NCBI GenBank assembly: GCA_900318765.1
Contig: ONLX01000025.1
Span: 1 to 57,447 of the forward strand
Reading direction: 5' to 3'
Source of the DNA: an uncultured Eubacteriales bacterium
GTDB taxonomy: Bacteria; Bacillota; Clostridia; Christensenellales; CAG-138
DNA: 57,447 bases
Numbering within the stretch: the first letter of the stretch is position 1; each line of letters starts with the position of its first letter. Both the position numbers and the translations under genes were made by a program. Shown here piece after piece: positions 6,614-33,819 of the stretch. The notes under the pieces are model-generated. The model searched no databases. It was not told where the DNA came from and saw nothing but the letters and a program-made list of their open reading frames with translations.

Positions 6614-6720
6614 CCTGATCGTCTCCTTCTTTGGATTCGGTTCCCATCGCCTATCCGTATGTCGGTATCATATCAAAAAACCAATCGGAATTCAACCTGC
6701 TTTCCCGGTTTTCCCCACAA

Positions 6721-6753
6721 AAAAGAACAGGCCGAAACGGATTTGGCCTGTTC
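6721..6753 (-). terminator. Intrinsic terminator after ygeW
   Basis: GAACAGGCC..GGCCTGTTC stem followed by a T-run on the minus strand. Confidence 0.7.
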
Positions 6754-6768
6754 ACAAAGGAATTGCTT

Positions 6769-7992: not shown

Positions 7993-8001
7993 GAAACCCC
8001 C

Positions 8002-20361: not shown

Positions 20362-20424
20362 GTGTTTCTCTCCGTCTCAAAATTAAACTATATAGTATGC
20401 TTCTTTTCAAGGTTTGTCAAGTCC

Positions 20425-21291
20425 TTACCGAAGCGGCAGGTATTCGATGAACTTGCGCACCGCCGCCGAGACATCCTTGCGGCTGCGCAGCGTCAGTCCG
20501 ATGCGCCGCGTTGCGGGAACGTCCAGCTCGCGTACTGCAATCCGGTACGGTGCACGCCGCAAGATCAACTCCGGGACGATGCTGATTCCGAGCCCCGCTT
20601 CCACCATCGACATGACCGCGTAATCATCCCACGTTGTAAAATGGACGTTCGGCTTCAATCCGTTTCGCTCAAAGATTTCGGACACCTCCGCCTTTGCCCC
20701 CTTCTCAAGCAGCATGAACGGTTCCTCGCAGAGCGATGCGAGCGGAACACGCTCGTACGCCGTCAGCGGATGGTGTTCCGGCAAGATTGCCACCAGTCGA
20801 TCCTGCTCGAGATAGATCTCCTCCAAATCCGGCAGCGTCGGCAGCCGATTGAACCCGCAGTCCACTGCGCCCGACTGCACCCATGCCTCGATCTCCGTAT
20901 AATCGCCGAGCAAAATCTCATACCCGATGTTCGGATAATCCTTCTGAAACTCCCGGATGATGTTTGGCAGCCAATACGTCGCCGCGCTCGAAAACGTCCC
21001 GATTCGGATCAGCCCCGATTGCAGACCGTTCAATGCATCCACCTCCATCCGCAGCTTCTCCGCATCCTCCAGAAGCCGCTTCACCCGAGGCATCAGCACC
21101 GTTCCGTCCGACGTTAACCGCACGCCGCTCTTGCTGCGTTCCAAAAGGCTCAGTTTCCATTCCGACTCCAGATCGGAAATCATCCGGCTGATGCCGGACT
21201 GTGTATAATTCATCCGTTCCGCCGCTTTGGTCAGACTTCCACACTCCGCCGCCGTCCAAAATGCCCGGTATTTCTGCATGCCCGTATCCAT
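20425..21291 (-). CDS. LysR-family transcriptional regulator
   Basis: GSLTKAAERMNYTQSGISRMI HTH, LLERSKSGVRLT; divergent from putP. Confidence 0.92.
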   Translation of the reverse strand: MDTGMQKYRAFWTAAECGSLTKAAERMNYTQSGISRMISDLESEWKLSLLERSKSGVRLTSDGTVLMPRVKRLLEDAEKLRMEVDALNGLQSGLIRIGTFSSAATYWLPNIIREFQKDYPNIGYEILLGDYTEIEAWVQSGAVDCGFNRLPTLPDLEEIYLEQDRLVAILPEHHPLTAYERVPLASLCEEPFMLLEKGAKAEVSEIFERNGLKPNVHFTTWDDYAVMSMVEAGLGISIVPELILRRAPYRIAVRELDVPATRRIGLTLRSRKDVSAAVRKFIEYLPLR

Positions 21292-21412
21292 TCTCGTTTC
21301 CTCATCGATTCCGTTTTTTCATGGATATTATGCGATTTCTTCGCTTTTCTCATGGATAAACCTATGATACGATATTTTCCAATCCATTGCAAGCAAAATT
21401 TGGAGGAATGAC

Positions 21413-22871: not shown

Positions 22872-22907
22872 TGCTCGCCCGATGAATCATCGGGCGAGCA
22901 TTCTTTT
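22872..22907. terminator. Terminator between putP and resC
   Basis: TGCTCGCCCGATGA-A-TCATCGGGCGAGCA stem. Confidence 0.8.
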
Positions 22908-22920
22908 GCCGAAAACCGAA

Positions 22921-23736
22921 TTATTTGTAGCTGTGTACGCCGGGCAAAAACGTGTTGACGCCGATATACGTGAAAATCACGCAGACGAATCCGACGATCG
23001 CGAAGATCGCCGCGGTCTTGCCGCGCCAGCCTCTGCGAATCCTCAGGTGCAGGTAGATCGCGTAGATGATCCACGTAACCAGTGACCAGGTCTCCTTCGG
23101 ATCCCATGACCAGTAGCTTCCCCACGCGCGCTCCGCCCAGATCGCGCCGGTGATGATCGTGAACGTCAGAAACAGCAAACCGAGGGCAACGCTGCGGTAG
23201 CTGATCAGATCAAGCTTTTCGCGGTTCGGAATGTGCTGATCGAAAAAGCTCCCTTCCTTCGCCCGATCGCGCAGCAAAAAGAGAATCGACAGAACGAACG
23301 AAACGCCGAACGCGCCGTACGCAATGATGGCGGTTGAAACGTGGAACCCGAGCCAGTTGCTTTGGAGCGCGGGCATCAGTTCATGCACATCCTTCGACTG
23401 CATCGCCGCATACCCGATCACGAGGAACGTTACCGGCGCGGCAAACGCGCCGAGCACCGGGAACCGGAAGCGCAAAATGAAGATCAGGCTGACCAGGCAC
23501 AGTCCCCACGCAAATGCCGTCGCGAACTCATACTGATTGGTGAGCGGCAGTCGCCCCGCGCCGATTCCGCGGCAGATCAGCGCTGCGGTATGCAGCACCA
23601 GTCCCGCAATCTGCAGTCCGATCGCGATCTTGCTGAGCAAATCTTTTTTGATTGCAAGATACGTAAAGTACAGAATCATCGCCGCAAAGTACAGCAGCAT
23701 GACGATCGTAAACAGCGTATTTTCCACCTGAAGCAT
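22921..23736 (-). CDS. resC: Cytochrome c biogenesis system II haem lyase subunit ResC (CcsA/CcsB nomenclature varies)
   Basis: WWD motif WAERAWGSYWSWDPKET; LQSNWLGFH, YLH and C-terminal GVHSY His ligands. Confidence 0.93.
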   Translation of the reverse strand: MLQVENTLFTIVMLLYFAAMILYFTYLAIKKDLLSKIAIGLQIAGLVLHTAALICRGIGAGRLPLTNQYEFATAFAWGLCLVSLIFILRFRFPVLGAFAAPVTFLVIGYAAMQSKDVHELMPALQSNWLGFHVSTAIIAYGAFGVSFVLSILFLLRDRAKEGSFFDQHIPNREKLDLISYRSVALGLLFLTFTIITGAIWAERAWGSYWSWDPKETWSLVTWIIYAIYLHLRIRRGWRGKTAAIFAIVGFVCVIFTYIGVNTFLPGVHSYK

Positions 23737-23742
23737 CGTTTT

Positions 23743-25041
23743 TTACTCCTTTTCGTTCTTGGAAGCCGCTTGCAAAAATGTTTCCCGATACAGCGTCCCG
23801 CGCTTGCGGCAATGGTCATGCACCGTCCATGTTCCGTCGTCCGCCTGCTCCGCCCATACGGCCTGTGGGAACAGGTAAAACGCCAGCAGCAGACCGAGCA
23901 TCGTCACGATTCCTCCGACAAATGCCAGCCACGTAAACGAGTCGCGCTTGATCTGAATCAGCGTATAGTTCTGCGGCGCAGAGAACGTCACCGTATAATC
24001 GTCGATCGTGAGCTTCTCCCCCGCCATCAGCACGTTCATGCCGATCATCTCCCCTCGGTAGTATACCGAATACAGATAGGCGGGATTCTTCAGACTGCTT
24101 GACAGCGTCTTCGGGCCCTCACCGGGAACCAACGCATAGTCCGGATAGAACGCATTGAAGAAGACGACCAGTTCCGGCAAATCCCTGACCGTGAGATATT
24201 CCCCGGCGCAAAGGATTTCGCTCTGTAAGGGCTGTTCCGCTTTCCAAACATCCACCTGTGCGGCCCATCCCGTGGCGTTCTGATAGAACGTCATGCCAAG
24301 CAGCCTGCCCGGATGGTTGACCGAAATCGTCGCGCTCTGTTGATCCGGCACGCTTGTACTGCCCTGCGGCATGCGAAACACCGTGATGTCCGCCGTGTAC
24401 TGCTCTACGGTTTCGTCCTCGCGAAGGGCAACTCGAAAATCGTCAATGCGCAGCGTCAGCCCCGTATCGGCAATCGGTTTCTCCTGGCCCGGCACGCCGT
24501 AGACCGTAAACTCCTTCTTGGTCATTTGCCCGAGCCCGAAGCCGAGAATCAGCAGCAGAATGCCGAGATGGCACACCCACGCGCCCCAAAGCCCGGCCCG
24601 ATTCTTTGCGGAAAACAGAATCGTTTTCCCGTTTGCCTCCACACGCTTCGGCTTCGGCATCCTAAGCCTATGAAAAACGCCTTCCGGGTCGGAAATCCCG
24701 GACGCCGACGCATCCGGTTCCGTTCCGAGATACGATGCCGCGTCATTTGCCGCCTTTGTCCGGCGGATCAAGGAGCCGAGCCGCAGTACGTTGCAAAGCA
24801 GCAGGTTTGCGCACAAAAAAGCGGTAATTGCGATAAACCACCAACTGTGAAACGCGTCGTCCAGGTGCAGCGCAACGATCCATGCGGCCGCCGTCTCGGA
24901 ATACGTTGCGGCATACCATTCATACGTCTGCCCCTGTGTAACAAAGCTGCCCACCGCGCACGCGACGACCAGCAATCCCAGCAGAAGGATCGCAAACGTC
25001 ATCGAAGACAGAAACTTCCAAATTTTCTTTACGACTTCCAT
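23743..25041 (-). CDS. resB: Cytochrome c biogenesis system II protein ResB (Ccs1)
   Basis: FLSSMTFAILLL, FHSWWF, CHLGILLLILG (TM His), ISVNHP..FYQ, C-terminal TM. Confidence 0.88.
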   Translation of the reverse strand: MEVVKKIWKFLSSMTFAILLLGLLVVACAVGSFVTQGQTYEWYAATYSETAAAWIVALHLDDAFHSWWFIAITAFLCANLLLCNVLRLGSLIRRTKAANDAASYLGTEPDASASGISDPEGVFHRLRMPKPKRVEANGKTILFSAKNRAGLWGAWVCHLGILLLILGFGLGQMTKKEFTVYGVPGQEKPIADTGLTLRIDDFRVALREDETVEQYTADITVFRMPQGSTSVPDQQSATISVNHPGRLLGMTFYQNATGWAAQVDVWKAEQPLQSEILCAGEYLTVRDLPELVVFFNAFYPDYALVPGEGPKTLSSSLKNPAYLYSVYYRGEMIGMNVLMAGEKLTIDDYTVTFSAPQNYTLIQIKRDSFTWLAFVGGIVTMLGLLLAFYLFPQAVWAEQADDGTWTVHDHCRKRGTLYRETFLQAASKNEKE

Positions 25042-25100
25042 ATTCCAAAAAAGAGCGGCGGAAATCCATCCATCAGATCCCCGCCGCTGTTCATACGAGT

Positions 25101-26408
25101 TTACTTTCCGAGCAGTTCCATCCCCTCGGCAATCTTCGCGTCGGATGTGTCCAAACAATAGAATGCAAGTTCGGAATTGTGCGCGCCCTCGGCATTCTCC
25201 ACGTAACAGAAGTCAAAGTACCACTGTGCTTCCCGATAGAGTTTCCGAACCGCGTCGAGTTCTTCTTCGCTCATCGTTCCGGCCGCAACCGTATCCGCAA
25301 GCGCGTCGTTGAATGCCGCAAGCCGGTTGCCGACCTCCGTCTCCCGTTCCGTAACTCTGCTCTGGAGCCGCGTCACCATGTTGACCATATCGGTATCGCC
25401 GTGGCATTCGGCACAGGTGCTGAGCAGCGTCTTGTTTTCGAGCGGACTGACGATATAGTGGCTGTGATAGATCGTTCCGTCCTCCGCCTGCTCAATCGGC
25501 ATATGGCAATCGGCACAGTTCAACAGGTTCGCATGCGGCCCTGCAAGATACGTCTCGAGTTCGGGATGCTGTGCCTTCAGAAGCTTTGCGCCCGTACTCT
25601 CCTGCACCCAATCATAGAAGCCGACGGATCCATCCGGAAGCACCATCGTATCGTAATACGCCAAAATCGTGTCCGGCGACATCGACGCAACATCGTGATA
25701 CGGCATCATCGTTTCCTTATCGGTCGGCGTGAAGTAATACTCGATGTGGCATTGCCCGCAGGACAGCGTGGCGGGATCGATCGAACTTGTTGCATCCTGA
25801 AGTGCCTTCGTCACGTAGGAGTGCGTGATCGTGATCTGCCCTTTGTTGCCCGCGTCGTTTCCGTGGCAGGTATAGCAGCTGATCGCCTCCTCCATATTCG
25901 CCATTACCTCATCGAATGACATCGTATATACGCCGATGCCCTGGTCGTTGACAAGCTTGGTGAAGTTTGGCGTCTTGCAGGTCAAGCAGTTTGCGTTCGC
26001 ATGCGGGCGCAGCGTCTGATCCACGTCCAAAAGCGTATACGCATGCCCGCGCGCGCTGCCGTAATCCTTCGCAAATCCATACCCCTCATAGATATTCACG
26101 AGGTACGGATCCTGTTCGAGATAGTCGATCACATAGGTGTTTTTCGCGTTGTCGCCCATCGTAGCCACAATGTACGGATACGCCTTTGCCCAGTCCCCGG
26201 CGTTGATCGTTCCGTCCTTGCTCGTTGCTGCAGGAGCCTCGACCGTTTGATACGAAATATCCGAACGGGTCAGCGGACCGAGGCTGTCGCGGTTTTCCAG
26301 ATGATACAGAATCTCTTTTCCGCCGATCACGCCGCAAAGGAACAGCACCGCGATCGCAACGACGATCCCTGCGATGATCAGTTTTGCCGCCTGATTTCGT
26401 TTCTCCAT
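25101..26408 (-). CDS. nrfA: Ammonia-forming pentahaem cytochrome c nitrite reductase NrfA (c552)
   Basis: CLTCK plus CYTCH, CGQCH, CADCH, CAECH; GYGFAKDY..RGH, HIEYYF, KAQHPE, ENAEGAHN; N-terminal hydrophobic helix. Confidence 0.93.
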   Translation of the reverse strand: MEKRNQAAKLIIAGIVVAIAVLFLCGVIGGKEILYHLENRDSLGPLTRSDISYQTVEAPAATSKDGTINAGDWAKAYPYIVATMGDNAKNTYVIDYLEQDPYLVNIYEGYGFAKDYGSARGHAYTLLDVDQTLRPHANANCLTCKTPNFTKLVNDQGIGVYTMSFDEVMANMEEAISCYTCHGNDAGNKGQITITHSYVTKALQDATSSIDPATLSCGQCHIEYYFTPTDKETMMPYHDVASMSPDTILAYYDTMVLPDGSVGFYDWVQESTGAKLLKAQHPELETYLAGPHANLLNCADCHMPIEQAEDGTIYHSHYIVSPLENKTLLSTCAECHGDTDMVNMVTRLQSRVTERETEVGNRLAAFNDALADTVAAGTMSEEELDAVRKLYREAQWYFDFCYVENAEGAHNSELAFYCLDTSDAKIAEGMELLGK

Positions 26409-26423
26409 CGAATCCCCCTCCCG

Positions 26424-27242
26424 TTATGCCGGAATCTCTTCAGCCTTCTCCGCCTTCGGCGGGAGAATGACCTGGACCGGGCACTTTTGGACGCACTTGC
26501 CGCATTGCGTGCAGTTCTCATAGCGAACGTGCGCAAGGTTGTTCTCCACCGTGATCGCTTCAAACGCGCATTGCTTCACGCAAAGGCTGCAGCCGATGCA
26601 TCCCGCCGAGCATACCTTCTTGACCAGCGGTCCCTTCTCCTTGTTCGAGCACTGCACGCGAACGCGCTTGCTCACAGGCACCAGCTCGATCAGCCCTTTC
26701 GGGCAGGCTTTGACGCAGAGTCCGCACTCGACGCAAAGCGCGTCGTTGACGACCGCAACGCCGTCCACAATCGAAATCGCGTTCTGCGGGCAGACCTGCA
26801 CGCACGAGCCGAGTCCGATGCAGCCGTAATCGCATTCGGCCAGGTTCATTCCGGACAGCACCGCCGCGCGGCAATCCGGAATTCCGACGTACTGTCCTTG
26901 ATTTTTCGTAACTTCACAGGTGCCTTTGCAGCGGACAAACGCCGCCCTGCGCTCGGGCATCTCCGCATTTTCGCCCATGATGCCGCCGATCCGCTCCGCA
27001 ACCGGAGCGCCTCCGACCGGGCAGACGTTTGAAGGCGCATCCCCTGCGACGATCGCCGCAGCCGCCGCGTCGCAGCCCGCGAATCCGCAGGCGCCGCAGT
27101 TATTGCCGGGCAGGCATTCGCGCACGGCCGCCTCGCGCTCATCGACCTCGACATGGAATTTCTTGCCGGTAATGACCAGTCCGACACCGACGACGATGCC
27201 AATCACCGTAATGACGGCGGTGGTAATCAGAATAATCTCCAT
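26424..27242 (-). CDS. rnfB: Rnf complex subunit B (polyferredoxin)
   Basis: N-terminal TM, CLPGNNCGACGFAGC, four further CxxCxxCxxxC-type motifs. Confidence 0.93.
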   Translation of the reverse strand: MEIILITTAVITVIGIVVGVGLVITGKKFHVEVDEREAAVRECLPGNNCGACGFAGCDAAAAAIVAGDAPSNVCPVGGAPVAERIGGIMGENAEMPERRAAFVRCKGTCEVTKNQGQYVGIPDCRAAVLSGMNLAECDYGCIGLGSCVQVCPQNAISIVDGVAVVNDALCVECGLCVKACPKGLIELVPVSKRVRVQCSNKEKGPLVKKVCSAGCIGCSLCVKQCAFEAITVENNLAHVRYENCTQCGKCVQKCPVQVILPPKAEKAEEIPA

Positions 27243-27254
27243 CGCACACCTCCG

Positions 27255-27833
27255 TCAGAACGAAAGACCCGAAAAGCCCATGAACGCAATCGACATCAAC
27301 GCCGCCGAGATGAGAACGATCGGCGCTCCGCGCAGCGGCGCGGGCAGATCCTCCTCACGGATCCGGGTACGGATACTGGCCAGAAGCACGATTGCCAGCG
27401 TGTAGCCGACCGCGGTTCCGAATCCCGCCAAAACGCTCTCGAGGAAATTGTACTCGTTCTGCACGTTCGTCAGCGCAACGCCGAGCACAGCGCAGTTCGT
27501 CGTAATTAGCGGAAGATAGATGCCGAGCGATTTATACAAGGCGGGCGACGTCTTTTTGAGAAACATTTCAACGATCTGAACGAGCGCGGCAATGACCAGA
27601 ATGAAAACGATCGTCTTCATAAAGTCGAGACCGAGCGGTTTCAGAACGAAATCATAGAGCAGGCTCGCCACGGCGGACGCGATCGTCATAACAAAGATGA
27701 CCGCCATACCGAGGCTTGCCGAAGCCTTCATCTGCTTCGAAACGCCGAGGAAGGAGCAGATGCCGAGGAACTGGTTCAATACCACATTGTTGATCAGCGC
27801 GCCGCCGATCATAATCAGAATCAGCTCTTTCAT
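27255..27833 (-). CDS. rnfA: Rnf complex subunit A
   Basis: NNVVLNQFLGIC, GIYLPLITTNCAVLG. Confidence 0.93.
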   Translation of the reverse strand: MKELILIMIGGALINNVVLNQFLGICSFLGVSKQMKASASLGMAVIFVMTIASAVASLLYDFVLKPLGLDFMKTIVFILVIAALVQIVEMFLKKTSPALYKSLGIYLPLITTNCAVLGVALTNVQNEYNFLESVLAGFGTAVGYTLAIVLLASIRTRIREEDLPAPLRGAPIVLISAALMSIAFMGFSGLSF

Positions 27834-28519
27834 TTGGCATCCTCCTCCGCATCCTCACAGCGCTGTGCGCAGGTTGCGCAGCACCCGTCACATGTGGTGT
27901 TCTCGACGAGCTTGCGCTGCCGGGTCTTGATGCCGATGGCGTTCATGATCGCGATGAACAGCGCAAGCACGAAGAACGCTCCCGGAGGTTGTACGAAGAT
28001 TCCGATCGGTTCCACGCCGGGCAGATATTGAATGAAGTTGAATCCGAACGCCGAGCCGCTTCCGAGCACCTCACGGACGAGTCCCGCCGCCGTCAGCGCG
28101 ATCGTAAAGCCGAGGCCCATTCCGATTCCGTCCATCACGGCGAGCCCGGGCGTATGCTTGTTTGCGTACGCTTCCGCACGGCCGAGGATGATGCAATTTA
28201 CGACGATCAGCGGAATATAGATGCCGAGCGCGCTGTACAGCGCAGGTAAGTAGGCTTCGATCAGCAGTTCCGTCACCGTAACAAGCGATGCCACGATTAC
28301 GATGTAGGCCGGAAGGCGCACCTCATCCGGAATCACCTTCCGGAGCAGCGAAATCACAAAGTTCGAAAGGATCAGAACCGCCGTGGTCGAGATGCCCATG
28401 CCGACGCCGTTCATTGCGGTGGTCGAAACCGCGAGCGTCGGGCACATGCCGAGCATCAGCACCAGGGTCGGATTCTCTTTGATCAGGCCGTTATACAGCC
28501 GTTCCACATAACGGTTCAT
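27830..28519 (-). CDS. rnfE: Rnf complex subunit E
   Basis: ENPTLVLMLGMCPTLAV, IPLIVVNCIILGRAEA, PPGAF; Cys-rich tail. Confidence 0.93.
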   Translation of the reverse strand: MNRYVERLYNGLIKENPTLVLMLGMCPTLAVSTTAMNGVGMGISTTAVLILSNFVISLLRKVIPDEVRLPAYIVIVASLVTVTELLIEAYLPALYSALGIYIPLIVVNCIILGRAEAYANKHTPGLAVMDGIGMGLGFTIALTAAGLVREVLGSGSAFGFNFIQYLPGVEPIGIFVQPPGAFFVLALFIAIMNAIGIKTRQRKLVENTTCDGCCATCAQRCEDAEEDAK

Positions 28520-28520
28520 A

Positions 28521-30086
28521 TCAATTCCCTCCGTGCATGACGTTATGGAAGAAGTCCAGCGCCGCATTGACCGCATTCACGACGGCGGAGGATGTAACCG
28601 TTGCGCCGGAGATGGCGTCGATGCCGTTTTCTCCCTCGCCGAGCACCAATTTTGTCACCACGCGGTCATTGAACTGATTGAGGAACTCCGGCTCCGCCGC
28701 TTTCGATCCCTTGCCCGGCGTTTCGTTGAGCTCGGTAAACGAGATGCAGTTCAGCGTCCCATCCGGCTTGAGGCCGACCGAAAGCTTGATGTCGCCCTCA
28801 TAGCCGTTGCCGTTCGTCACGCTCAGGACGTATCCTGCTACGTCGCCGTTGCCGTCGACGCCAATCAATGCTTCATTGATGTATGACCGTCCGAAGCTCG
28901 TTCCGTACACGCCGCCGTTCAGCTCGGCAAGCGCCTGATTCGCTTCCTCGCTTTCCACGAACATCTTCGCGTCGGGACAGACGACCTGGTAAGACGCGCG
29001 CTTGGCCTCCAGTTTCTTCTGCTCGATCGCCGGCTCGGTCATCGTGAACACGCCGGACAGCGCAACGCCCGCAAGCAGTGTGATCACCGTCAGCGCAATG
29101 ACAGGCTTCGGAATCCGCTGCCAGAGCGGAACCCGCTTCTCCCCGTTGGCCTTCTTGATCGCCGCCCTGCGATACGCATACGGCTTTTGAATGATATACA
29201 TATCGATCAACGGCGTAAACAGGTTGGCGATGATAACCGAGTAACTGAACGAGTCGGCATTTTTGCCGAAAATCCGAAACAGTGCGCCGAGTACGCCAAT
29301 CAGGCACCCGTAAACGAGCTGCCCGAGCCGGCTGACCGGAGACGTCGTATAATCGGTTGCCATAAAGAATGCGCCCATGACGACACCGCCGCCGCAAAGA
29401 TGCGCCAGCAGGAATTTCGGATCAAAGCCCTGTCCGCCCAGCAGCGCCATCATCAGCGTGAATCCGCCGAGCACGGAGAAGCAGATTTCCCCGTGAATGA
29501 TATCCAGTCCCCAAAGCACCAATCCGCCGACGAGCATCGCCAGCACCGAGCTGCCGATAACGCCGTTCGTCGTGCCGAGGAACATCTGCGTGATATTGAC
29601 CGTTTTGCCCGCCGTCAGAATCGCGACCGGCGTCGCCGAAGTCACGCCGTCCGCCGCAAGCGGGAACTGCGTCATGGCATTGCCGAAGGAGATCATCAAA
29701 AAGCATCGTGCGGCCAATGCAGGGTTCACAAAGTTCTTGCCGAGACCGCCGAAGCAGCATTTTACGACGAGAATCGCAAACGCCGAACCGATGATCGGGA
29801 TATACAGCGGAACGATCGGCGACAGCGACAGCGCGAGCATCATGCCCGTAACCGCCGCAGAGCCGTCAAAAATGCTGAGCTTGCGCCGCGTGATCGCGCA
29901 GAACAGCCACTCGGACCCGACCGCAGATACGATCGACGCGAGAATGACAAACAACGCGTGCCAACCGTTTACGATGACGCCGACGATCGCCGTCGGCAGC
30001 AGTGCGATCAGCACCGTATGCATGATGAACGACGTCGTCCAGCGATCGCGAATGTGCGGCCCGTGAGAAAGATGCAATGTGTTCAT
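28521..30086 (-). CDS. rnfDG: Fused RnfD-RnfG subunit
   Basis: N-terminal RnfD (PHIR, FGGLGKNFVNPA, DGVTSATP, FMATDYTTSP) in one ORF with RnfG (TM, GYEGDI, ETPG, DAISGATVTS). Confidence 0.92.
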   Translation of the reverse strand: MNTLHLSHGPHIRDRWTTSFIMHTVLIALLPTAIVGVIVNGWHALFVILASIVSAVGSEWLFCAITRRKLSIFDGSAAVTGMMLALSLSPIVPLYIPIIGSAFAILVVKCCFGGLGKNFVNPALAARCFLMISFGNAMTQFPLAADGVTSATPVAILTAGKTVNITQMFLGTTNGVIGSSVLAMLVGGLVLWGLDIIHGEICFSVLGGFTLMMALLGGQGFDPKFLLAHLCGGGVVMGAFFMATDYTTSPVSRLGQLVYGCLIGVLGALFRIFGKNADSFSYSVIIANLFTPLIDMYIIQKPYAYRRAAIKKANGEKRVPLWQRIPKPVIALTVITLLAGVALSGVFTMTEPAIEQKKLEAKRASYQVVCPDAKMFVESEEANQALAELNGGVYGTSFGRSYINEALIGVDGNGDVAGYVLSVTNGNGYEGDIKLSVGLKPDGTLNCISFTELNETPGKGSKAAEPEFLNQFNDRVVTKLVLGEGENGIDAISGATVTSSAVVNAVNAALDFFHNVMHGGN

Positions 30087-31438
30087 TGTTTGCCTCCTGC
30101 CGCAGCCGCTGCGCGCTTCTTCGCCATCAATTCCGCTTTTGTCTGCTTAAACGCCTGTGTGAGCGGGCGTTTTGCCGGGCAGATGTAAGTGCAGGAGCCG
30201 CAAGCCACGCAATCCAGTCCATGCAGCTTGTTTTCATACCGCTCCATGTCCCCTGCCGTAATCGCGTCCGCCATCATCTGCGGCATCAGACCGCTCGGGC
30301 AAACCGTCGTGCAGCGTCCGCAATGCAGGCACGCGGTCATCTGTTTTTCGGCCAGCTCCACCGCGTCCTCGGCCAGCACCGTGATCGCATTCGTCGTTTT
30401 GGTCACGGGAACGTCCGTCGTCCCGACCGCAATGCCCATCATCGGTCCGCCCGAAAGCACCTTCACAGCTTCCTTGCCCTCGCGGATGCCTCCGCATGCT
30501 TCGATCAGTTCCGCAAAGCTCGTGCCGTCCCGCACGATGAAATTGCGCGGCACAGCAATCGCCTCGCCGGTCACGGTCAGCACATGGCGGAACAGCGGTT
30601 CCCGGTAGTGCACCGCCCGTCCGATCGCATAGAGCGTTCCGACGTTGCTGACAATGCAGCCGACATCCGCCGGCAGCTTGTTGATCGGATAATCGATTCC
30701 CGCAATCGCCTTGATGAGGCTGCGCTCGCCGCCCTGCGGGTACTTGGTTCGCATTTTCAGAACGCGGATGCGCGGATGCCCGTTCACGGCCTTTTGCATC
30801 GCGGCAATCGCTTCGGGCTTGTTCGATTCAATCGCAACGATCCCCTCGGCATTCGGAAACAGCTTCAGAACGACTTCCATGCCCTCCAGAATGCCCTTGG
30901 CGCTCGACCGCATCAGCTGATCGTTGCAGGTCAGGTACGGTTCGCACTCGGCACCGTTCGCAATGACGAACCGAATGCCGAGCGGCACTTTGGGCATGAG
31001 CTTCACGTGCGTCGGGAACCCGGCGCCGCCGAGGCCGATAATGCCGGCGTTCTTCACGCGCGCAATGATCTCCTCGTTCGATAAGGAGGAAAGCTCTTCG
31101 CGCTCGGTATACGCTTCGACCGCGGTAAACTGCCCGTCGTTTTCCACAACGATGCACTCCTGCATCGTGCCGGCGATCGTGCGCCGTTTCTCGATTGCTT
31201 TCACCTTCCCGGAGCAGGAACAGATGATGTTTGCGGAAACGAATCCATCCGCCTCGGCAATGCACTGCCCCGCAAGCACCGGATCGCCCTTTATGACGAT
31301 GGGTTTTGCGGGTTTTCCGATGTGCTGCGCGAGCGGAAAGACCAGGTCGCCGACCGGATTGTATGCACGCAGCGGCATTTCCCGACTGAGCTCCTTATGC
31401 CCTCTCGGATGAACGCCGCCGCGGAATGTGTCCTTCAC
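30083..31438 (-). CDS. rnfC: Rnf complex subunit C
   Basis: FRGGVHP, QHIG, GLGGAGFPTHVK, NGAECEPYLT, GGPMMG, two 4Fe-4S motifs; GTG start. Confidence 0.94.
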   Translation of the reverse strand: MKDTFRGGVHPRGHKELSREMPLRAYNPVGDLVFPLAQHIGKPAKPIVIKGDPVLAGQCIAEADGFVSANIICSCSGKVKAIEKRRTIAGTMQECIVVENDGQFTAVEAYTEREELSSLSNEEIIARVKNAGIIGLGGAGFPTHVKLMPKVPLGIRFVIANGAECEPYLTCNDQLMRSSAKGILEGMEVVLKLFPNAEGIVAIESNKPEAIAAMQKAVNGHPRIRVLKMRTKYPQGGERSLIKAIAGIDYPINKLPADVGCIVSNVGTLYAIGRAVHYREPLFRHVLTVTGEAIAVPRNFIVRDGTSFAELIEACGGIREGKEAVKVLSGGPMMGIAVGTTDVPVTKTTNAITVLAEDAVELAEKQMTACLHCGRCTTVCPSGLMPQMMADAITAGDMERYENKLHGLDCVACGSCTYICPAKRPLTQAFKQTKAELMAKKRAAAAAGGKQ

Positions 31439-31521
31439 CGTTTCATTCCCCCTTTTTCCGAATTTTCCCGTAATTCGTTCGTTTTCGGCGCAAAAACGTG
31501 CGCCGAATACACTCCAGGTTC

Positions 31522-31550
31522 AGTTTAACAGATTCTATTGGGTTTGTAAA
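31522..31550 (-). promoter_or_regulatory. Putative rnf-nrf promoter TTTACA-17-TAAACT (extended -10 TG)
   Basis: Hexamers at 31545-31550 and 31522-31527; 9-bp leader hairpin at 31484-31507. Confidence 0.55.
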
Positions 31551-31600: not shown

Positions 31601-33799
31601 TCACGCGCTTGGCGCAGGGCGATCGATCCGCTGCCGTTCGACCAGTTCGGCAAACGCTCCGTTTTGGGCAATCAGTTTCTCGTATGTCCCGTCCTCCAGG
31701 ATCGTTCCGCCGTCCAGCAGCAGAATCCGATCGCAGTTGCGGATCGTGCTGAGTCGGTGCGCGATCACGATGCGCGTGCATTTGAGCCGATCGAGCGCTT
31801 CACTGACCTGCTTCTGCGTCTTGTTGTCGAGTGCGGACGTCGCCTCGTCAAGCACCAGAATCTTTGGGCTCGACGCAACCGCGCGCGCGATCATCAATCG
31901 CTGCTTCTGCCCGCCGGAGATTCCGCCCTGCCCTTCCGAGATCAACGTCTGCATGCCCATCGGCATCTCCCGGATATCCTCGGCGATCCCCGCAATTTCG
32001 GCTGCCTTCCATGCATCGTCCAACGTCGCATACGGCGCGGAGATCGTAATGTTCGAGAAGATGTCCCCTTGGAACAACTGTCCGTTCTGCGTGACCACGC
32101 CCATAAATTTGCGTACAGACCGCGGATCGAGGCTGTTCAGATCCTTCCCGTCAAAATAGACCGCGCCGCGCTGGGGTTTCTCGAATCCGAGCAGCAGCCG
32201 CAGCAGCGTGGATTTCCCGCATCCCGTTCTGCCGACGAGGGCAACGTATTCCCCGGGACGGATTTTCAGCGAAAGATCCTTCAGCACATCCGGGGTGTTT
32301 TCATCGTACCGGAAAAAGACGTGGTTCAGCTCAATCCCGCCGGAGAGCTTCGTCAGAACCTCTTTGCTCCCGGTCACCTCCGGTTCGGTGTTCAGAATGG
32401 GCTCGGCCATCTCAAGCACCGGCTTCATCTGCGCAAACGCCGTCGCAAGCGACGCAAGCGCGGTAAACGCGCCCATCAGATGACCGTATGACGCCGTAAA
32501 CGCGTTGTAATCTGCTACACTCACATTGGATTGCACCGCGATCAGATACAATGCAATGTTTCCGATCAGCCCGATTGCCGTGAGAAGAACGCCGTCCAGT
32601 TTCAAGAACAGCGGCGGATTGTACTCGAGCTTCGACGCTTCGGAAAAAACGCCTGCCCAGCGGGCGAACGCGCGCTTCTCAGCGCCGGCCAGCTTGATCT
32701 TCTGAATGCCGGAGACCATTGCGTAGCTCAGCCCCCGTTCCTTCGCCAAAAGCTCCATCCGCTTCCGGGAAATGCGAATCCTCGCAAACATCGCAATCGT
32801 GCTGAGCAGCACCGTCGCCAAAATGATGATCAACGAAGGAGCAACGAGCGCGGGCGCGAACCGCGAAATCTGCACCACATACAGCAGCGACAGAATGGAA
32901 GACAGCCCGACCGAAAGGACGTTGCCGATCATCATCTGGCAGAGCGCGCTGACCGACCCGGCGCGGCTTGCCAGTTCGCCGGAGGAGAACCCCCGAAAGA
33001 AGCTCACCGGAAGCGACAGAATCCGCATCATCACGGCCGATTCAACCGCCATCGACGTTTTCGTATGGATCCGTCCCATCAGAAGGGTTCGGACAACGCC
33101 GATGAGCTGGGACGAGAACGCCGCGCACAGCAGAAAGATCGCCGTACCGATCAGTATCGAATAGGATCGGTTGCTCAGCACAGGCCCCATCAAAATGCGA
33201 TACGCCCGCGGCTCGATCATTCCGACGAGCGTGACCGCCAGCGTCGCAATGAGAATCAGCACAAAATCGCTGACGGAAATGCTGTCCTTCATATACAGCA
33301 AAAGATCGGGAATTCCGAGCTTCTTCATCGGCATCGGACGATAGAAGCACACGGCTTCCTCGCAAAAATCCGACGCCGTTTTTTTCGTAATCCGAACGGT
33401 TTCTCCCGTTTTCGGATCGCGATAATGATACCCATGCAGCAGGTTGGGCAGCAGCGCGACCGGATCGTTTCCATCCTTCAAAAACCCGATCATCGGCCCG
33501 AATGCGTCCTTTTGCCAACCAGGCTCCAGCCGAATCGCGCGCGTCATGATGCCGAGAGGACGCAGCACGTAATCCATCTGCTCCTCGGCCGTCTGGATCG
33601 AATCCGGGACCTTCACCGGGGCGCAGCGATAATACTTCAAAATATCGTCGAGCGCTTCCCGCGCAATCGTCATTCGATCCCGCATCAGGTCCGCCACCCT
33701 GCCCCCGAGCACGGATGCAGCGACGCGCACAAACGAATCGTCAAACAGATTCCGATCGCTCTCCATCCGCTGCCGGATCTGTTCGTCAAACCATCCCAT
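31601..33799 (-). CDS. NHLP-type bacteriocin export ABC transporter, permease/ATPase (no peptidase Cys motif seen)
   Basis: MGWFDEQIRQR start typical of this family; GRTGCGKST, ISGGQKQR, DEATSALD. Confidence 0.85.
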   Translation of the reverse strand: MGWFDEQIRQRMESDRNLFDDSFVRVAASVLGGRVADLMRDRMTIAREALDDILKYYRCAPVKVPDSIQTAEEQMDYVLRPLGIMTRAIRLEPGWQKDAFGPMIGFLKDGNDPVALLPNLLHGYHYRDPKTGETVRITKKTASDFCEEAVCFYRPMPMKKLGIPDLLLYMKDSISVSDFVLILIATLAVTLVGMIEPRAYRILMGPVLSNRSYSILIGTAIFLLCAAFSSQLIGVVRTLLMGRIHTKTSMAVESAVMMRILSLPVSFFRGFSSGELASRAGSVSALCQMMIGNVLSVGLSSILSLLYVVQISRFAPALVAPSLIIILATVLLSTIAMFARIRISRKRMELLAKERGLSYAMVSGIQKIKLAGAEKRAFARWAGVFSEASKLEYNPPLFLKLDGVLLTAIGLIGNIALYLIAVQSNVSVADYNAFTASYGHLMGAFTALASLATAFAQMKPVLEMAEPILNTEPEVTGSKEVLTKLSGGIELNHVFFRYDENTPDVLKDLSLKIRPGEYVALVGRTGCGKSTLLRLLLGFEKPQRGAVYFDGKDLNSLDPRSVRKFMGVVTQNGQLFQGDIFSNITISAPYATLDDAWKAAEIAGIAEDIREMPMGMQTLISEGQGGISGGQKQRLMIARAVASSPKILVLDEATSALDNKTQKQVSEALDRLKCTRIVIAHRLSTIRNCDRILLLDGGTILEDGTYEKLIAQNGAFAELVERQRIDRPAPSA

Positions 33800-33819
33800 A
33801 CGAATCCGCCTCCTTTCCG

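What the first reader, a model, noticed from the sequence alone, without database searches (positions are those of the whole stretch)
22921..31550. Rnf complex wired to a pentahaem nitrite reductase: rnfC-DG-E-A-B-nrfA-resB-resC with no NrfH/NrfBCD
Seen: eight co-oriented genes behind one putative promoter. rnfB and nrfA are only 15 bp apart and most other junctions overlap or are under 15 bp. NrfA has a CXXCK active-site haem, four CXXCH motifs, the catalytic Arg/Tyr/His motifs (RGH, EYYF, KAQH) and an N-terminal hydrophobic anchor. No tetrahaem NrfH, NrfBCD or other quinol dehydrogenase gene is in the window. Established: NrfA normally gets electrons from menaquinol via NrfH or NrfBCD; Rnf is a ferredoxin:NAD+ ion pump whose FMN-carrying RnfG faces outside; the Methanosarcina acetivorans rnf operon carries a multihaem cytochrome (MmcA). 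Inference: this Rnf diverts electrons (ferredoxin via B-A/E-G, or NADH via C-D-G) to outward-facing NrfA, giving possibly quinone-independent nitrite ammonification or detoxification in a fermenter. I recall second rnf clusters being reported in rumen butyrivibrios, so check the literature before claiming the gene arrangement itself is new.
Basis: partly seen in the sequence, partly recalled or inferred. Interest (0 to 1): 0.92.

Follow-up and report, generated by a model that had tools for sequence, protein, structure and literature searches.

The report
Rnf complex joined to nitrite reductase
A rumen bacterium's only Rnf ion pump is encoded in one conserved eight-gene unit with a membrane-anchored nitrite reductase and its haem-attachment genes, which suggests nitrite is reduced to ammonium with ferredoxin or NADH electrons and without quinones.

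Summary
On the minus strand lie rnfC, a fused rnfDG, rnfE, rnfA, rnfB, a pentahaem nrfA, then resB and ccsA (22921-31438). A conserved promoter-like site precedes them.

- **Conservation:** among the best 80 of 143 NrfA relatives, 78 had upstream flank and 77 of these have rnfB upstream. By record label they are 68 Bacillota, 11 Spirochaetota and one unlabelled.
- **A distinct Rnf lineage:** in the window's own family, 14 of 151 genomes carry this fused-RnfDG type. All 14 have NrfA a few kb away and no second RnfD. The rest have an unfused Rnf only 37-45% identical.
- **No usual donor:** no NrfH/NapC family and no UbiA/MenA prenyltransferase was found in the window's genome or in five 95-98% complete relatives. 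NrfA is the genome's only multihaem ORF.
- **Docking model:** a complex model puts NrfA's N-terminal helix and linker on RnfD's outer loop beside its covalent FMN (score 0.65, best control 0.00).

Best reading (about 0.6): Rnf's outward flavins feed NrfA. This is a new variant of Rnf-cytochrome coupling, known from Methanosarcina MmcA. Nine paper searches found no description. All evidence is computational, from uncultured genomes.

The parts
31522..31550 (-). promoter-like site, TTTACA, 17 nt spacer, TG-extended TAAACT, upstream of rnfC
   Evidence: Consensus scan. The TTTACA hexamer is invariant and the TG..TA element recurs in 10 of 10 aligned upstream regions (window plus 9 relatives). No conserved operator was seen.
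30083..31438 (-). rnfC, the NADH/FMN-binding and 2x[4Fe-4S] subunit
   Evidence: TIGR01945 484.8 bits (cut-off 245.95); Pfam RnfC_N, Complex1_51K, SLBB and Fer4. It is the only rnfC above cut-off in the genome.
28521..30086 (-). rnfDG, one ORF that fuses the RnfD membrane subunit (residues 1 to about 305) to RnfG (TM helix at about 326-350, FMN-binding domain to 521)
   Evidence: Pfam PF03116 5.7e-92 (6-303) and PF04205 6.2e-18 (428-511); TIGR01946 225.8 bits over cut-off. It matches 7zc6_D/9eri_D and 9eri_G/7zc6_G. Thr152 in the DGVTSATP motif is invariant in 56 sequences, and the SGAT motif is at about 492-496. The fusion is kept in all 55 relatives aligned.
27830..28519 (-). rnfE, with an extra Cys-rich C-terminal tail
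   Evidence: TIGR01948 246.3 bits over cut-off. 7zc6_E matches at 7.4e-71 but ends before the tail. The tail has 4 or more Cys in 57 of 60 relatives read.
27255..27833 (-). rnfA
   Evidence: TIGR01943 267.5 bits (cut-off 229.3).
26424..27242 (-). rnfB, the polyferredoxin input subunit with an N-terminal TM helix
   Evidence: TIGR01944 105.5 bits (cut-off 68.7); Pfam FeS plus several Fer4 domains.
25101..26408 (-). nrfA, a pentahaem cytochrome c nitrite reductase with an N-terminal membrane helix (about 8-30) and a conserved juxtamembrane segment (about 33-51)
   Evidence: PF02335 256.5 bits. CXXCK plus 4 CXXCH, and the catalytic R120/H122, Y224 and H281 are invariant in 56 sequences. It aligns to solved NrfA 3ubr_A at 3.1e-45 over residues 85-429. 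It is the only ORF in the genome with 2 or more CXXCH.
25054..25088 (-). terminator-like hairpin with a T-run between nrfA and resB
   Evidence: 15-pair stem followed by CTTTTTTGG. By a crude test it is not conserved as a hairpin plus T-run in relatives (2 of 55), so its role is open.
23743..25041 (-). resB (ccsB/ccs1-type), system II cytochrome c biogenesis
   Evidence: Pfam ResB 4.7e-50. It lies downstream of nrfA in 77 of the 79 related loci that have any downstream flank.
22921..23736 (-). ccsA/resC (NCBIfam name CcsB), the haem-handling subunit of system II
   Evidence: TIGR03144 272.3 bits (cut-off 187.6); PF01578 8.6e-59.
22872..22900 (.). two-way terminator-like hairpin shared with the convergent symporter gene
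   Evidence: 13-pair stem with T-runs on both strands. The convergent gene at 21413-22858 is a sodium:solute symporter.

Best explanation
The region is one mobile eight-gene module. It holds a complete Rnf complex (RnfC, fused RnfDG, RnfE, RnfA, RnfB), the pentahaem nitrite reductase NrfA, and the ResB/CcsA machinery that attaches NrfA's haems outside the cell.

**Shown**
- The genes, their cofactor motifs and their order.
- The order is kept as a unit in many rumen Bacillota and some Spirochaetota.
- This Rnf is a lineage of its own and is the only Rnf in the genomes checked.
- The usual NrfA donor (NrfH) and the MenA-type step of quinone synthesis were not found in the six genomes searched for them.

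**Inferred**
- NrfA sits on the outer face of the membrane, held by its N-terminal helix.
- The helix and the conserved segment after it dock on RnfD's extracellular 'five-helix linker'. That loop covers RnfD's covalent FMN, and RnfG's FMN domain also touches it.
- Electrons come from reduced ferredoxin (RnfB, then the RnfA/E centre, then RnfG-FMN, then RnfD-FMN) or from NADH (RnfC, then riboflavin, then RnfD-FMN). They leave the normal loop at the outer flavins and enter NrfA's haems.
- NrfA then reduces nitrite to ammonium outside the cell, without quinones.
- Because it is the sole Rnf, the complex most likely still works as ferredoxin:NAD+ oxidoreductase, with NrfA as a branch.

**Likely role**
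The likely use is as an electron sink and nitrite detoxifier for a fermenter. The organism has no nitrate reductase family gene, so the nitrite would be made by other rumen microbes. Whether the branch conserves energy is open. By simple charge counting (my inference), each electron sent outward cancels about one pumped cation.
For: **Identity of the parts**
- All Rnf subunits pass or match NCBIfam/Pfam models.
- The flavin-attachment Thr152 of RnfD is invariant and the SGAT motif of RnfG is present.
- The ApbE flavin transferase is present elsewhere in the genome.
- NrfA's CXXCK, four CXXCH and catalytic residues are invariant across 56 sequences and align to solved NrfA.

**Linkage across relatives**
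- Of the best 80 of 143 NrfA relatives in one-genome-per-species contigs, 78 have upstream flank.
- 77 of these 78 have rnfB upstream on the same strand, and 70 of them have a gap of 199 nt or less.
- 56 loci hold complete rnfC, rnfDG, rnfA, rnfB and nrfA.

**A distinct, sole Rnf**
- In 151 genomes of the window's family, 134 have RnfD.
- Exactly 14 of them have the fused type at 63-100% identity. The same 14 have this NrfA 3-4 kb away on the same contig and no second RnfD hit.
- The other 120 have an unfused RnfD of 37-45% identity.
- The same holds in a Spirochaete family: 5 of 101 have the fused type, each as its only hit.
- rnfC is single in 5 of 5 relatives.
- A genus-mate without NrfA has an ordinary unfused rnfCDGEAB at another locus.

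**No other donor**
- PF03264 (NrfH/NapC) and PF01040 (UbiA/MenA) give 0 hits in the window's genome.
- Both give 0 of 5 hits in relatives that are 95-98% complete.
- NrfA is the only multihaem ORF in the genome.

**Complex model of RnfDG and NrfA**
- Scores 0.65, 0.64 and 0.65; best of 3 controls 0.00. That mark was reached by 58 of 80 solved complexes and 2 of 110 mismatched pairs.
- The runs share at least 82% of their contacts, and the partner's pLDDT is at least 86.
- The counts hold only roughly, because my own alignments were used.
- Contacts: NrfA 5-26, 32-43 and 307-311 with RnfD 157-170, 182-195 and 218-231.
- By alignment to 7zc6_D and passages of Vitt et al. 2022 (PMC9588780), these RnfD parts are the five-helix linker over FMN-RnfD, helix VI, and the helix VII-VIII linker.
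- No PDB entry holds both an Rnf and an NrfA chain, so the pass is not memory of a solved complex.

**Sequence signs that fit a docking surface**
- The cassette's RnfD has its own conserved motif in the contact region. A resident RnfD and two fused RnfDGs from genomes without NrfA read differently there.
- The NrfA segment LGPLTRxD is 70-90% conserved.
- Two relatives whose nrfA is not next to rnf lack all or part of the N-terminal segment.

**Other support**
- In 3 loci a secreted FMN_bind plus FAD_binding_2 reductase also sits between rnfB and nrfA. This fits Rnf acting as a hub for outside reductases.
- Fragments of rnfC, rnfDG, rnfE, rnfB and nrfA occur without mismatch in three RNA libraries. 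One contig (26392-26786) runs from rnfB 32 nt past its stop.
Against: - There is no biochemical or genetic evidence. All 80 related loci are metagenome-assembled genomes.
- The complex model left out RnfA, RnfE, RnfB and RnfC and all cofactors. The modelled site could therefore be occupied in the full complex, and I could not measure a flavin-haem distance. The score is the model's own confidence.
- The wider NrfA clade can live apart from rnf. G089 has nrfA-resB-ccsA (56% identity) with only a resident-type RnfD found among the 9 of 22 first-look candidates that were scored. L067 has dnaX upstream of nrfA. Some other donor must therefore be possible.
- The RnfDG fusion is not tied to NrfA: 0 of 5 other fused genomes have NrfA.
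- No nitrite- or NO-responsive operator was seen, and the promoter looks constitutive.
- The RNA evidence is weak. It consists of contigs only, DNA carry-over is not excluded, and only 17 nt of the bridging contig lie inside nrfA.
- Tree agreement between NrfA and Rnf (Mantel r 0.59; 24 of 54 splits shared) is also what plain vertical descent would give.
- Charge counting suggests little or no net ion-motive gain, so 'respiration' may be the wrong word.
- The window's genome is 79% complete.
Confidence: 0.6

Rival explanations
1. Neighbours but not partners. On this reading nrfA-resB-ccsA is a nitrite-detoxifying add-on that landed behind a strong, always-on rnf promoter and travels with it. 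NrfA gets its electrons from something else, such as an unrecognised membrane redox protein or reduced small molecules in rumen fluid. Rnf works only as ferredoxin:NAD+ oxidoreductase.
For: - The promoter is conserved but no nitrite-linked operator was seen.
- A terminator-like hairpin follows nrfA.
- NrfA relatives with resB-ccsA exist away from rnf (G089 and L067).
- The rnfB-nrfA junction tolerates unrelated inserts: a ParE toxin-antitoxin gene in L061, a similar reading frame seen in L056 but not scanned, and a peptidase-like gene in L045.
- Natranaerofaba also has an anchored NrfA without NrfH or quinones, in a nap locus, with an unknown donor (PMC8359318, passages read).
Against: - A passenger would not be expected to stay glued to one Rnf lineage in 77 of 78 loci across two phyla.
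- It would also not be expected to co-occur 14 of 14 with that lineage while 120 family members with the resident Rnf lack it.
- No candidate alternative donor exists. There is no other multihaem ORF in the window's genome, and no NrfH and no MenA-type prenyltransferase in the six genomes searched.
- The complex model passes its controls at a functionally meaningful site.
- The contact regions carry cassette-specific motifs.
Confidence: 0.2
2. Rnf does feed the cytochrome, but nitrite ammonification is not the main job. The enzyme would chiefly remove other oxidants that NrfA-type enzymes can reduce (nitric oxide, hydroxylamine, sulfite, peroxide), or act as a general outward electron outlet as MmcA does in Methanosarcina.
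For: - NrfA scores below the NCBIfam equivalog cut-offs (214.2 against 595; 180.2 against 692.5), so it is a divergent branch.
- The genome has no molybdopterin oxidoreductase family hit, hence no nitrate reductase of its own.
- MmcA, a multihaem cytochrome of a related family, is a promiscuous electron conduit in the rnf operon (bioRxiv 10.1101/2023.04.20.537704, passages read).
- That NrfA enzymes reduce these other substrates is recalled knowledge, not from a call.
Against: - The full nitrite-reductase active site is invariant in 56 sequences and aligns with solved nitrite reductases: lysine-ligated haem, Arg, Tyr, His and the EYYF and KAQH calcium-site motifs.
- Nitrite builds up in the rumen depending on the nitrate content of feed, and rumen nrfA is well expressed (PMC6776011, passages read).
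Confidence: 0.12
3. Assembly or binning artefact: the adjacency is a chimeric join in a metagenome-assembled genome.
For: The window comes from a 137-contig genome that is 79% complete.
Against: - The same order recurs in 77 of 78 evaluable loci, whose record titles carry many different naming schemes.
- It also recurs in 13 other genomes of the family sample.
- A DNA-type run gives contigs without mismatch across rnfB-nrfA-resB-ccsA (record 2, 23089-27112).
Confidence: 0.01

Closest known systems
NrfHA and NrfABCD nitrite ammonification (Wolinella, Desulfovibrio, E. coli, Shewanella)
   Same: The catalytic subunit is the same: pentahaem NrfA with a lysine-ligated active-site haem, the catalytic Arg/Tyr/His, and an outward-facing location. 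It aligns to solved NrfA 3ubr, 1gu6, 2j7a and 1fs7 at E 1e-35 to 3e-45.
   Different: No NrfH/NapC-family quinol dehydrogenase and no MenA-type prenyltransferase were found. NrfA carries its own N-terminal membrane helix plus a conserved linker, which the solved chains do not cover. It is encoded in the rnf operon and scores below the NCBIfam equivalog cut-offs.
Methanosarcina acetivorans Rnf with the heptahaem cytochrome MmcA
   Same: A multihaem c-type cytochrome gene always lies in the rnf operon, and the protein takes electrons from Rnf on the outer face. [quoted passage not shown]
   Different: MmcA is the first gene of its operon, has a cleaved signal peptide and no membrane helix, and hands electrons to methanophenazine or metals. 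Here the cytochrome is itself a terminal reductase, is last of the rnf genes, is helix-anchored, is bacterial, and brings its own system II maturation genes. RnfC here keeps the NADH-binding domain.
Rnf variants with multi-flavinylated or multihaem RnfG proposed to feed outside acceptors (Meheust et al. 2021, eLife, PMC8238504)
   Same: The idea is the same: a second exit from Rnf's outer flavins to extracytosolic acceptors. That paper notes RnfG-cytochrome fusions in Christensenellales (passages read).
   Different: There the extra redox centres are fused into RnfG and no terminal enzyme is named. 'NrfA' has 0 occurrences in its main text, and 'nitrite' has 2 that I did not read. Here RnfG has a single FMN domain, and a separate terminal reductase is modelled to dock on RnfD. 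Its supplementary cluster tables could hold such loci, but I could not see them.
Canonical Rnf of Clostridium tetanomorphum (7ZC6) and Acetobacterium woodii (9ERI)
   Same: All six subunit families and cofactor motifs are present. RnfD matches 7zc6_D at 1.6e-65 and RnfE matches 7zc6_E at 7.4e-71.
   Different: RnfD and RnfG are one polypeptide. RnfE has a Cys-rich C-terminal tail absent from both solved RnfE chains. RnfD has its own motif in helix VI and a linker shorter by 5 residues. An nrfA-resB-ccsA tail follows rnfB.
Natranaerofaba carboxydovora NrfA (nap-nrfA locus, no NrfH, no quinones)
   Same: It is a Gram-positive, helix-anchored NrfA without NrfH in an organism said to lack respiratory quinones. 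The authors leave the donor unknown (PMC8359318, passages read).
   Different: That nrfA lies with napAGHDF and not with rnf, and its Rnf is encoded elsewhere with Mnh genes.

Membership tests
Rnf complex (RnfABCDGE ferredoxin:NAD+ oxidoreductase) | All six subunit families are encoded together | tested here: met
   rnfC, rnfD, rnfE, rnfA and rnfB pass the TIGR subfamily cut-offs. The rnfG part scores 101.6 bits against a cut-off of 102 within the fusion, and Pfam FMN_bind matches at 6.2e-18.
Rnf complex (RnfABCDGE ferredoxin:NAD+ oxidoreductase) | Covalent-FMN attachment sites in RnfD (Thr in the S/T-A-T-P motif) and RnfG (SGAT) | tested here: met
   Thr152/Pro153 are invariant in 56 sequences and align to DGVTTATP of 7zc6_D. 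SGAT lies at about 492-496. ApbE is present in the genome. Vitt et al. give Thr153 as the site in C. tetanomorphum.
Rnf complex (RnfABCDGE ferredoxin:NAD+ oxidoreductase) | RnfC has NADH/FMN-binding and 2x[4Fe-4S] domains; RnfB has a polyferredoxin | tested here: met
   Complex1_51K 1.5e-48, SLBB and Fer4 families in RnfC. FeS plus several Fer4 families in RnfB.
Rnf complex (RnfABCDGE ferredoxin:NAD+ oxidoreductase) | Ferredoxin:NAD+ oxidoreductase activity coupled to Na+/H+ transport | not testable with these tools
   This needs membranes or purified enzyme.
NrfA (ammonia-forming pentahaem cytochrome c nitrite reductase) | One CXXCK and four CXXCH haem motifs | tested here: met
   C141-K145, C178-H182, C217-H221, C298-H302 and C332-H336. 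All are invariant in 56 sequences except C217, which is 90% or more conserved.
NrfA (ammonia-forming pentahaem cytochrome c nitrite reductase) | Catalytic Arg, Tyr and His and the calcium-site motifs (RGH, EYYF, KAQH) | tested here: met
   R120, G121, H122, E223, Y224, K278, Q280 and H281 are invariant. They align residue for residue with 3ubr_A. Which residue does what is recalled knowledge.
NrfA (ammonia-forming pentahaem cytochrome c nitrite reductase) | Score over the curated family cut-off | tested here: inconclusive
   Pfam PF02335 scores 256.5 bits, over its 24.1 cut-off. The NCBIfam equivalogs are not reached: NF008339 214.2 against 595, and TIGR03152 180.2 against 692.5. It is a divergent branch of the family.
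NrfA (ammonia-forming pentahaem cytochrome c nitrite reductase) | A dedicated quinol-oxidising partner (NrfH or NrfBCD) | tested here: not met
   PF03264 gives 0 hits in the window's genome and 0 of 5 in near-complete relatives. No second multihaem ORF exists. NrfC/NrfD families were not searched by name.
NrfA (ammonia-forming pentahaem cytochrome c nitrite reductase) | Nitrite to ammonium activity | not testable with these tools
   This needs an enzyme assay.
System II cytochrome c biogenesis (ResB/CcsB with ResC/CcsA) | Both membrane subunits are present next to the client cytochrome | tested here: met
   Pfam ResB 4.7e-50; TIGR03144 272.3 bits (cut-off 187.6). resB follows nrfA in 77 of the 79 loci that have any downstream flank. 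Thiol-reducing helpers (CcdA/ResA) were not searched.
Rnf with an operon-encoded multihaem cytochrome partner (MmcA type) | A c-type multihaem cytochrome gene is universally kept in the rnf operon | tested here: met
   77 of 78 evaluable loci. 14 of 14 in the family sample.
Rnf with an operon-encoded multihaem cytochrome partner (MmcA type) | The cytochrome is an MmcA homologue that passes electrons to a membrane carrier | not tested
   No MmcA sequence was compared here. By Pfam and the PDB search the protein is an NrfA, which is a terminal enzyme and not a shuttle.

The most novel reading that the evidence does not exclude
Rnf and NrfA form a stable supercomplex in which NrfA is in effect a seventh subunit, docked by its N-terminal helix on RnfD beside the outer flavins. 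Together they make a self-contained respiratory chain, a ferredoxin (and NADH):nitrite oxidoreductase with no quinone and no cytochrome b or NrfH. This chain still passes the ion-pumping step of Rnf, moves between phyla as one cassette and displaces the resident Rnf. In the rumen it would be a large, so far unassigned sink for nitrite and for reducing power that would otherwise leave as hydrogen and methane.
Probability: 0.3. Interest if true: 0.9.

Novelty: new variant of a known kind. Interest (0 to 1): 0.8.

Why it matters
**Electron supply to NrfA.** NrfA is taught as a quinol-fed enzyme. How helix-anchored NrfA works in quinone-free Gram-positive anaerobes has been left open, for example in the Natranaerofaba paper. 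This cassette gives a concrete and testable answer: Rnf's outward-facing flavins.

**Scope of Rnf.** If true, the Rnf-to-cytochrome link extends from one archaeal case (MmcA) to bacteria and to a terminal reductase. It would add a new minimal electron-transport chain.

**Rumen ecology.** Rumen studies assign nrfA mostly to Selenomonas, Wolinella and Bacteroidetes, and report higher nrfA expression in low-methane sheep (PMC6776011, passages). The carriers found here are uncultured Clostridia-type and Sphaerochaeta-type organisms. At least 64 of the 80 records are named as ruminant-derived. They could therefore matter for nitrite poisoning and for nitrate feeding as a methane-lowering measure.

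**Evolution.** The pattern of one Rnf lineage replacing another, together with its acceptor, is a clear case of a bioenergetic module moving as a unit.

Tried and rejected
Rejected for these genomes. Only one rnfC or RnfD of any type was found in the window's genome, in 5 of 5 relatives, in 13 other family genomes and in 5 Spirochaete genomes. I did not search the literature on butyrivibrios.
- **RnfDG fusion as a marker of NrfA coupling.** Rejected. Six other genomes of a 399-genome class sample have full-length fused forms at 42-45% identity. 0 of the 5 I tested have NrfA. Two of their operons, read in full, end with ordinary genes after rnfB.
- **The nrfA-resB hairpin as a conserved attenuator.** Not supported. 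Only 2 of 55 intergenic regions of 25-400 nt passed a crude test (fold of -12 kcal/mol or lower, plus 5 or more U in the tail). The test folds the whole spacer and may miss real terminators.
- **A nitrite, NO or Rex-type operator upstream of rnfC.** None was conserved in 10 aligned upstream regions. Only the promoter hexamers and the ribosome-binding site are kept.
- **An 'empty site' in a genus-mate.** G035's best match to the flanking symporter is only 42% identical and G073 has none. G035's own rnf locus shares no flanking ORF of 150 aa or more with the window. So I showed neither insertion nor in-place replacement, only that the two Rnf types lie in different contexts.
- **RNA libraries.** Little or no contig cover over resB and ccsA in runs X5, X7 and X8. 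A part without cover is not evidence, so I draw nothing from it. X1 is probably DNA despite its label.
- **Tree agreement of NrfA and Rnf**. It does not separate joint transfer from vertical descent. The case for transfer rests on the patchy distribution. The trees include the decayed L080 as a long branch. They were 'quick' LG+G4 trees, not the careful method.
- **G109.** It carries a different, canonical-scoring NrfA (605.9 bits to Pfam, 29% identical to the window's) on a short contig, with no NrfH-like ORF of 110 aa or more beside it. I did not follow this up.
- **Supplementary files** of papers were not opened. Supplementary file 1 of PMC8238504 lists annotated RNF gene clusters and might already contain rnf-nrfA loci.
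- **Not done:** a metagenome-contig scan, a homologous-protein search, a monomer fold, and searches for haem synthesis, CcdA/ResA or NrfC/NrfD.

Full report
**What is there.** The ORF list, family scans and the sequence itself confirm eight co-oriented genes on the minus strand. They are rnfC (30083-31438), a single 521-aa ORF fusing RnfD to RnfG (28521-30086), rnfE (27830-28519), rnfA (27255-27833), rnfB (26424-27242), nrfA (25101-26408), resB (23743-25041) and ccsA (22921-23736). The junctions are an ATGA overlap, 1 nt, an ATGA overlap, 12 nt, 15 nt, 59 nt and 6 nt.

A promoter-like site (TTTACA, 17 nt spacer, TG-extended -10) lies at 31522-31550. A terminator-like hairpin follows nrfA (25054-25088), and a two-way one follows ccsA (22872-22900).

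NrfA has CLTCK plus four CXXCH and the RGH, EYYF and KAQH motifs. These are invariant in 56 aligned sequences and align with solved nitrite reductases (3ubr_A, E 3.1e-45). Its first 84 residues hold a basic N-terminus, a hydrophobic stretch of about 22 residues and a linker. They have no counterpart in the solved chains.

The Rnf parts pass or match their family models. The RnfD flavin-attachment threonine is invariant and the RnfG site is present. ApbE is encoded elsewhere in the genome.

**The genome around it.** The window is contig 45 of a 1.76-Mb, 137-contig genome that is 79% complete. That genome holds the following.
- One NrfA.
- One rnfC above cut-off.
- No NapC/NirT/NrfH family.
- No UbiA/MenA-type prenyltransferase.
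- No molybdopterin oxidoreductase, hence no Nar or Nap of its own.
- No other ORF of 80 aa or more with two or more CXXCH.

Because the genome is incomplete, I repeated the two key searches in five cassette-bearing relatives of 95-98% completeness. NrfH/NapC gave 0 of 5 and UbiA/MenA gave 0 of 5. The controls rang in 2 and in 14 of 14 reference genomes respectively. The ResB/CcsA pair therefore seems to exist for NrfA alone, and the usual quinol route to NrfA is not available.

**Conservation.** A scan of one genome per species (185,579 species) found 143 NrfA relatives, and the best 80 were kept. By record label they are 68 Bacillota, 11 Spirochaetota and 1 unlabelled. At least 64 titles name ruminant sources, and all are metagenome-assembled. 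tblastn with the window's eight proteins gave these counts.
- Two loci begin inside nrfA.
- Of the other 78, 77 have rnfB upstream on the same strand, 70 of them within 199 nt.
- 65 loci show rnfC; the other 15 have under 6 kb of upstream flank.
- 77 of the 79 loci with any downstream flank have resB after nrfA.
- 56 loci hold complete rnfC, rnfDG, rnfA, rnfB and nrfA.

The seven loci with 642-3502 nt between rnfB and nrfA hold inserts of two kinds. Some are unrelated small genes: a ParE toxin-antitoxin gene in L061 and a peptidase-like gene in L045. L056 shows a similar reading frame that I did not scan, and L032's insert was not scanned either. In three loci (L029, L062, L065) the insert is a secreted or anchored FMN_bind plus FAD_binding_2 reductase, a second outside-facing terminal enzyme.

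The one locus without rnfB (L067) has dnaX upstream. Its genome has a more distant fused rnf cluster on another contig and also an unfused one.

**A separate Rnf lineage that is the only Rnf.** In 151 sampled genomes of the window's own family, 16 have NrfA and 134 have RnfD.
- Exactly 14 have a full-length fused RnfDG at 63-100% identity. These are the same 14 that have the roughly 255-bit NrfA, always on the same contig 3-4 kb away.
- None of the 14 has a second RnfD. Two have an extra lone FMN-binding domain.
- The other 120 have an unfused RnfD of only 37-45% identity.
- Genus-mates without NrfA (G035, G096) have that resident type.

G035's operon is an ordinary rnfC-D-G-E-A-B at 40-53% identity in a different neighbourhood.

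The two remaining NrfA genomes differ. G109 has a canonical-scoring NrfA that is 29% identical. G089 has nrfA-resB-ccsA at 56% identity, away from rnf, and its NrfA starts with a short signal-like N-terminus in place of the helix and linker.

In a Spirochaete family reached through locus L041, 5 of 101 genomes have the fused type (60-64% identity), each as its only RnfD-like hit. rnfC is single in 5 of 5 relatives. NrfA and concatenated Rnf trees (57 rows) both put the six Spirochaete rows on one branch, and they agree moderately (Mantel r 0.59, 0 of 999 permutations as high; 24 of 54 splits shared).

The patchy spread within families and across two phyla, with a lineage-specific Rnf, fits best with the eight genes moving as one unit and standing in for the resident Rnf. 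The fusion itself is not the mark of NrfA coupling. Other fused RnfDGs (42-45% identity) occur in genomes without NrfA.

**Does NrfA touch Rnf?** I spent the one complex job on the fused RnfDG (alignment A2) with NrfA (A3).
- Scores were 0.65, 0.64 and 0.65, and the best of three controls was 0.00.
- The mark was reached by 58 of 80 solved complexes and 2 of 110 mismatched pairs in the tool's calibration.
- The runs share at least 82% of their contacts, and the partner's pLDDT is at least 86.
- The counts hold only roughly, because my own alignments were used.

The confident contacts are NrfA 5-26 (the helix), 32-43 (the linker) and 307-311, with RnfD 157-170, 182-195 and 218-231, and not with the RnfG domain. 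I mapped these by the alignment to 7zc6_D and by passages of Vitt et al. 2022 (PMC9588780). The RnfD segments are:
- the extracellular 'five-helix linker', which covers the covalent FMN on Thr153 and on which RnfG's FMN domain rests;
- helix VI;
- the helix VII-VIII linker.

No PDB entry contains both an Rnf and an NrfA chain, so the pass is not recall of a solved complex.

Two sequence observations fit a docking surface.
- The cassette's RnfD has its own conserved motif in helix VI and a shorter linker, where one resident RnfD and two fused RnfDGs from genomes without NrfA read differently.
- NrfA's juxtamembrane LGPLTRxD is 70-90% conserved, while the helix itself is about 54%.

The model lacks RnfA, RnfE, RnfB, RnfC and all cofactors. 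I cannot say the site is free in the full complex, and I cannot give a flavin-haem distance.

**Expression.** Four runs were laid on the operon. Three are on record as RNA. They give mismatch-free contigs on rnfC, rnfDG, rnfE, rnfB and nrfA. One 395-nt contig of run X5 covers 26392-26786, from inside rnfB across its stop and the 15-nt spacer into the first 17 nt of nrfA. This shows the sequences are present in RNA libraries and hints at read-through. It does not prove a single transcript, and DNA carry-over is not excluded.

**How it most likely works.** In canonical Rnf, electrons enter from ferredoxin at RnfB and cross through the RnfA/E centre to RnfG-FMN on the outside. They pass to RnfD-FMN and return through riboflavin and RnfC to NAD+ (Vitt et al. 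passages; Meheust et al. passages).

I infer that NrfA, anchored next to the two outer flavins, offers a second exit. Ferredoxin, and in reverse NADH, can then reduce nitrite outside the cell. The span is large: Rnf works at about -500 to -300 mV, and the nitrite/ammonium couple is strongly positive (recalled). Since it is the sole Rnf and RnfC keeps its NADH domain, the normal ferredoxin:NAD+ function probably persists.

An electron that leaves outward carries a charge that offsets about one pumped cation, and nitrite reduction consumes protons outside. This is my own accounting from recalled stoichiometry. I therefore expect the main gain to be redox balance and nitrite removal rather than a large ion-motive yield. 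This point is open.

**Against what is known.** Nine full-text searches found no paper that describes an rnf-nrfA operon or Rnf-fed NrfA. The terms covered rnf/nrfA/rumen, Rnf complex/nitrite reductase/NrfA, rnfB/nrfA, flavinylation/Rnf/extracytosolic, nrfA/Christensenellales, NrfA/NrfH/Rnf/ferredoxin, Rnf/NrfA/quinone-independent, rumen nrfA genomes, and Rnf/pentaheme/nitrite. The nearest ideas are these.
- Meheust et al. 2021 propose that multi-flavin or multihaem RnfG variants give Rnf a second, outward path. 'NrfA' has 0 occurrences in the main text (passages read).
- Huang et al. 2024 has 0 occurrences of NrfA or nitrite.
- The MmcA work shows a multihaem cytochrome always encoded in the Methanosarcina rnf operon and acting as Rnf's outlet (passages).
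- The Natranaerofaba paper notes an anchored NrfA without NrfH or quinones and leaves the donor unknown (passages).
- Rumen surveys assign nrfA mainly to Selenomonas, Wolinella and Bacteroidetes (passages).

I read only passages of these papers. Supplements were closed, and the cluster tables of Meheust et al. may list such loci.

I rate it a new variant of a known kind, an Rnf with an operon-encoded multihaem partner. I put confidence at about 0.6 that Rnf is NrfA's electron donor, and interest at 0.8. No bench evidence exists yet.

Noticed in passing
window 27830-27925 (minus), the C-terminus of RnfE: The cassette's RnfE ends in an extra tail of about 30 residues with a cysteine cluster (C-D-G-C-C-x2-C-x3-C). 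57 of 60 relatives read have 4 or more Cys in the last 40 residues. The solved RnfE chains 7zc6_E and 9eri_E stop before it. It may be an extra metal or Fe-S site, but its side of the membrane and its role are unknown.
   Followed up: partly
L029:7086-9979, L062:3245-5812, L065:7125-9859: In three relatives a secreted or anchored FMN_bind plus FAD_binding_2 flavoprotein reductase lies between rnfB and nrfA. L029 also has TatC there, and L062 and L065 have a NusG_II-domain protein. The rnf operon thus carries two outward-facing terminal reductases.
   Followed up: partly
L087 (G089:C10) 5964-9311; L067:2525-3853: These are two NrfA relatives not next to rnf. G089's NrfA (56% identity, with resB-ccsA) has a short signal-like N-terminus in place of the helix and linker. 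L067's NrfA keeps the helix and GPLTR but lacks the YHLxNR part, and dnaX lies upstream. L067's genome has a second, more distant fused rnf cluster cut off by a contig end, and also an unfused one.
   Followed up: partly
L080:6287-8588: One relative's cassette looks decayed. It has an in-frame stop in rnfDG and a split rnfE, and it forms a long branch in the Rnf tree.
   Followed up: no
window 28521-30086, RnfD residues about 189-203: The cassette's RnfD has its own conserved helix-VI motif (LWxxDIIHGEICF). One resident RnfD and two fused RnfDGs from genomes without NrfA read quite differently there. The motif overlaps the modelled NrfA contact at 182-195.
   Followed up: partly
window 31601-36018 (minus): Directly upstream lie two 732-aa ABC exporters. 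One has an N-terminal C39 peptidase domain, which marks a bacteriocin or peptide export pair.
   Followed up: no
window 19147-22858: Downstream are a convergent sodium:solute symporter (21413-22858, plus strand), a LysR-type regulator (20425-21291, minus) and a class I/II aminotransferase (19147-20361, minus). The symporter stays next to the cassette in the closest genus-mate G126, but G035's best match is only 42% identical and G073 has none.
   Followed up: partly
L088 (G109:C81) 1283-2935: A family member carries a different, canonical-scoring NrfA (605.9 bits to Pfam, 29% identical to the window's) on a short contig, with no NrfH-like ORF of 110 aa or more beside it. It may be contamination or a second NrfA type in the family.
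   Followed up: no
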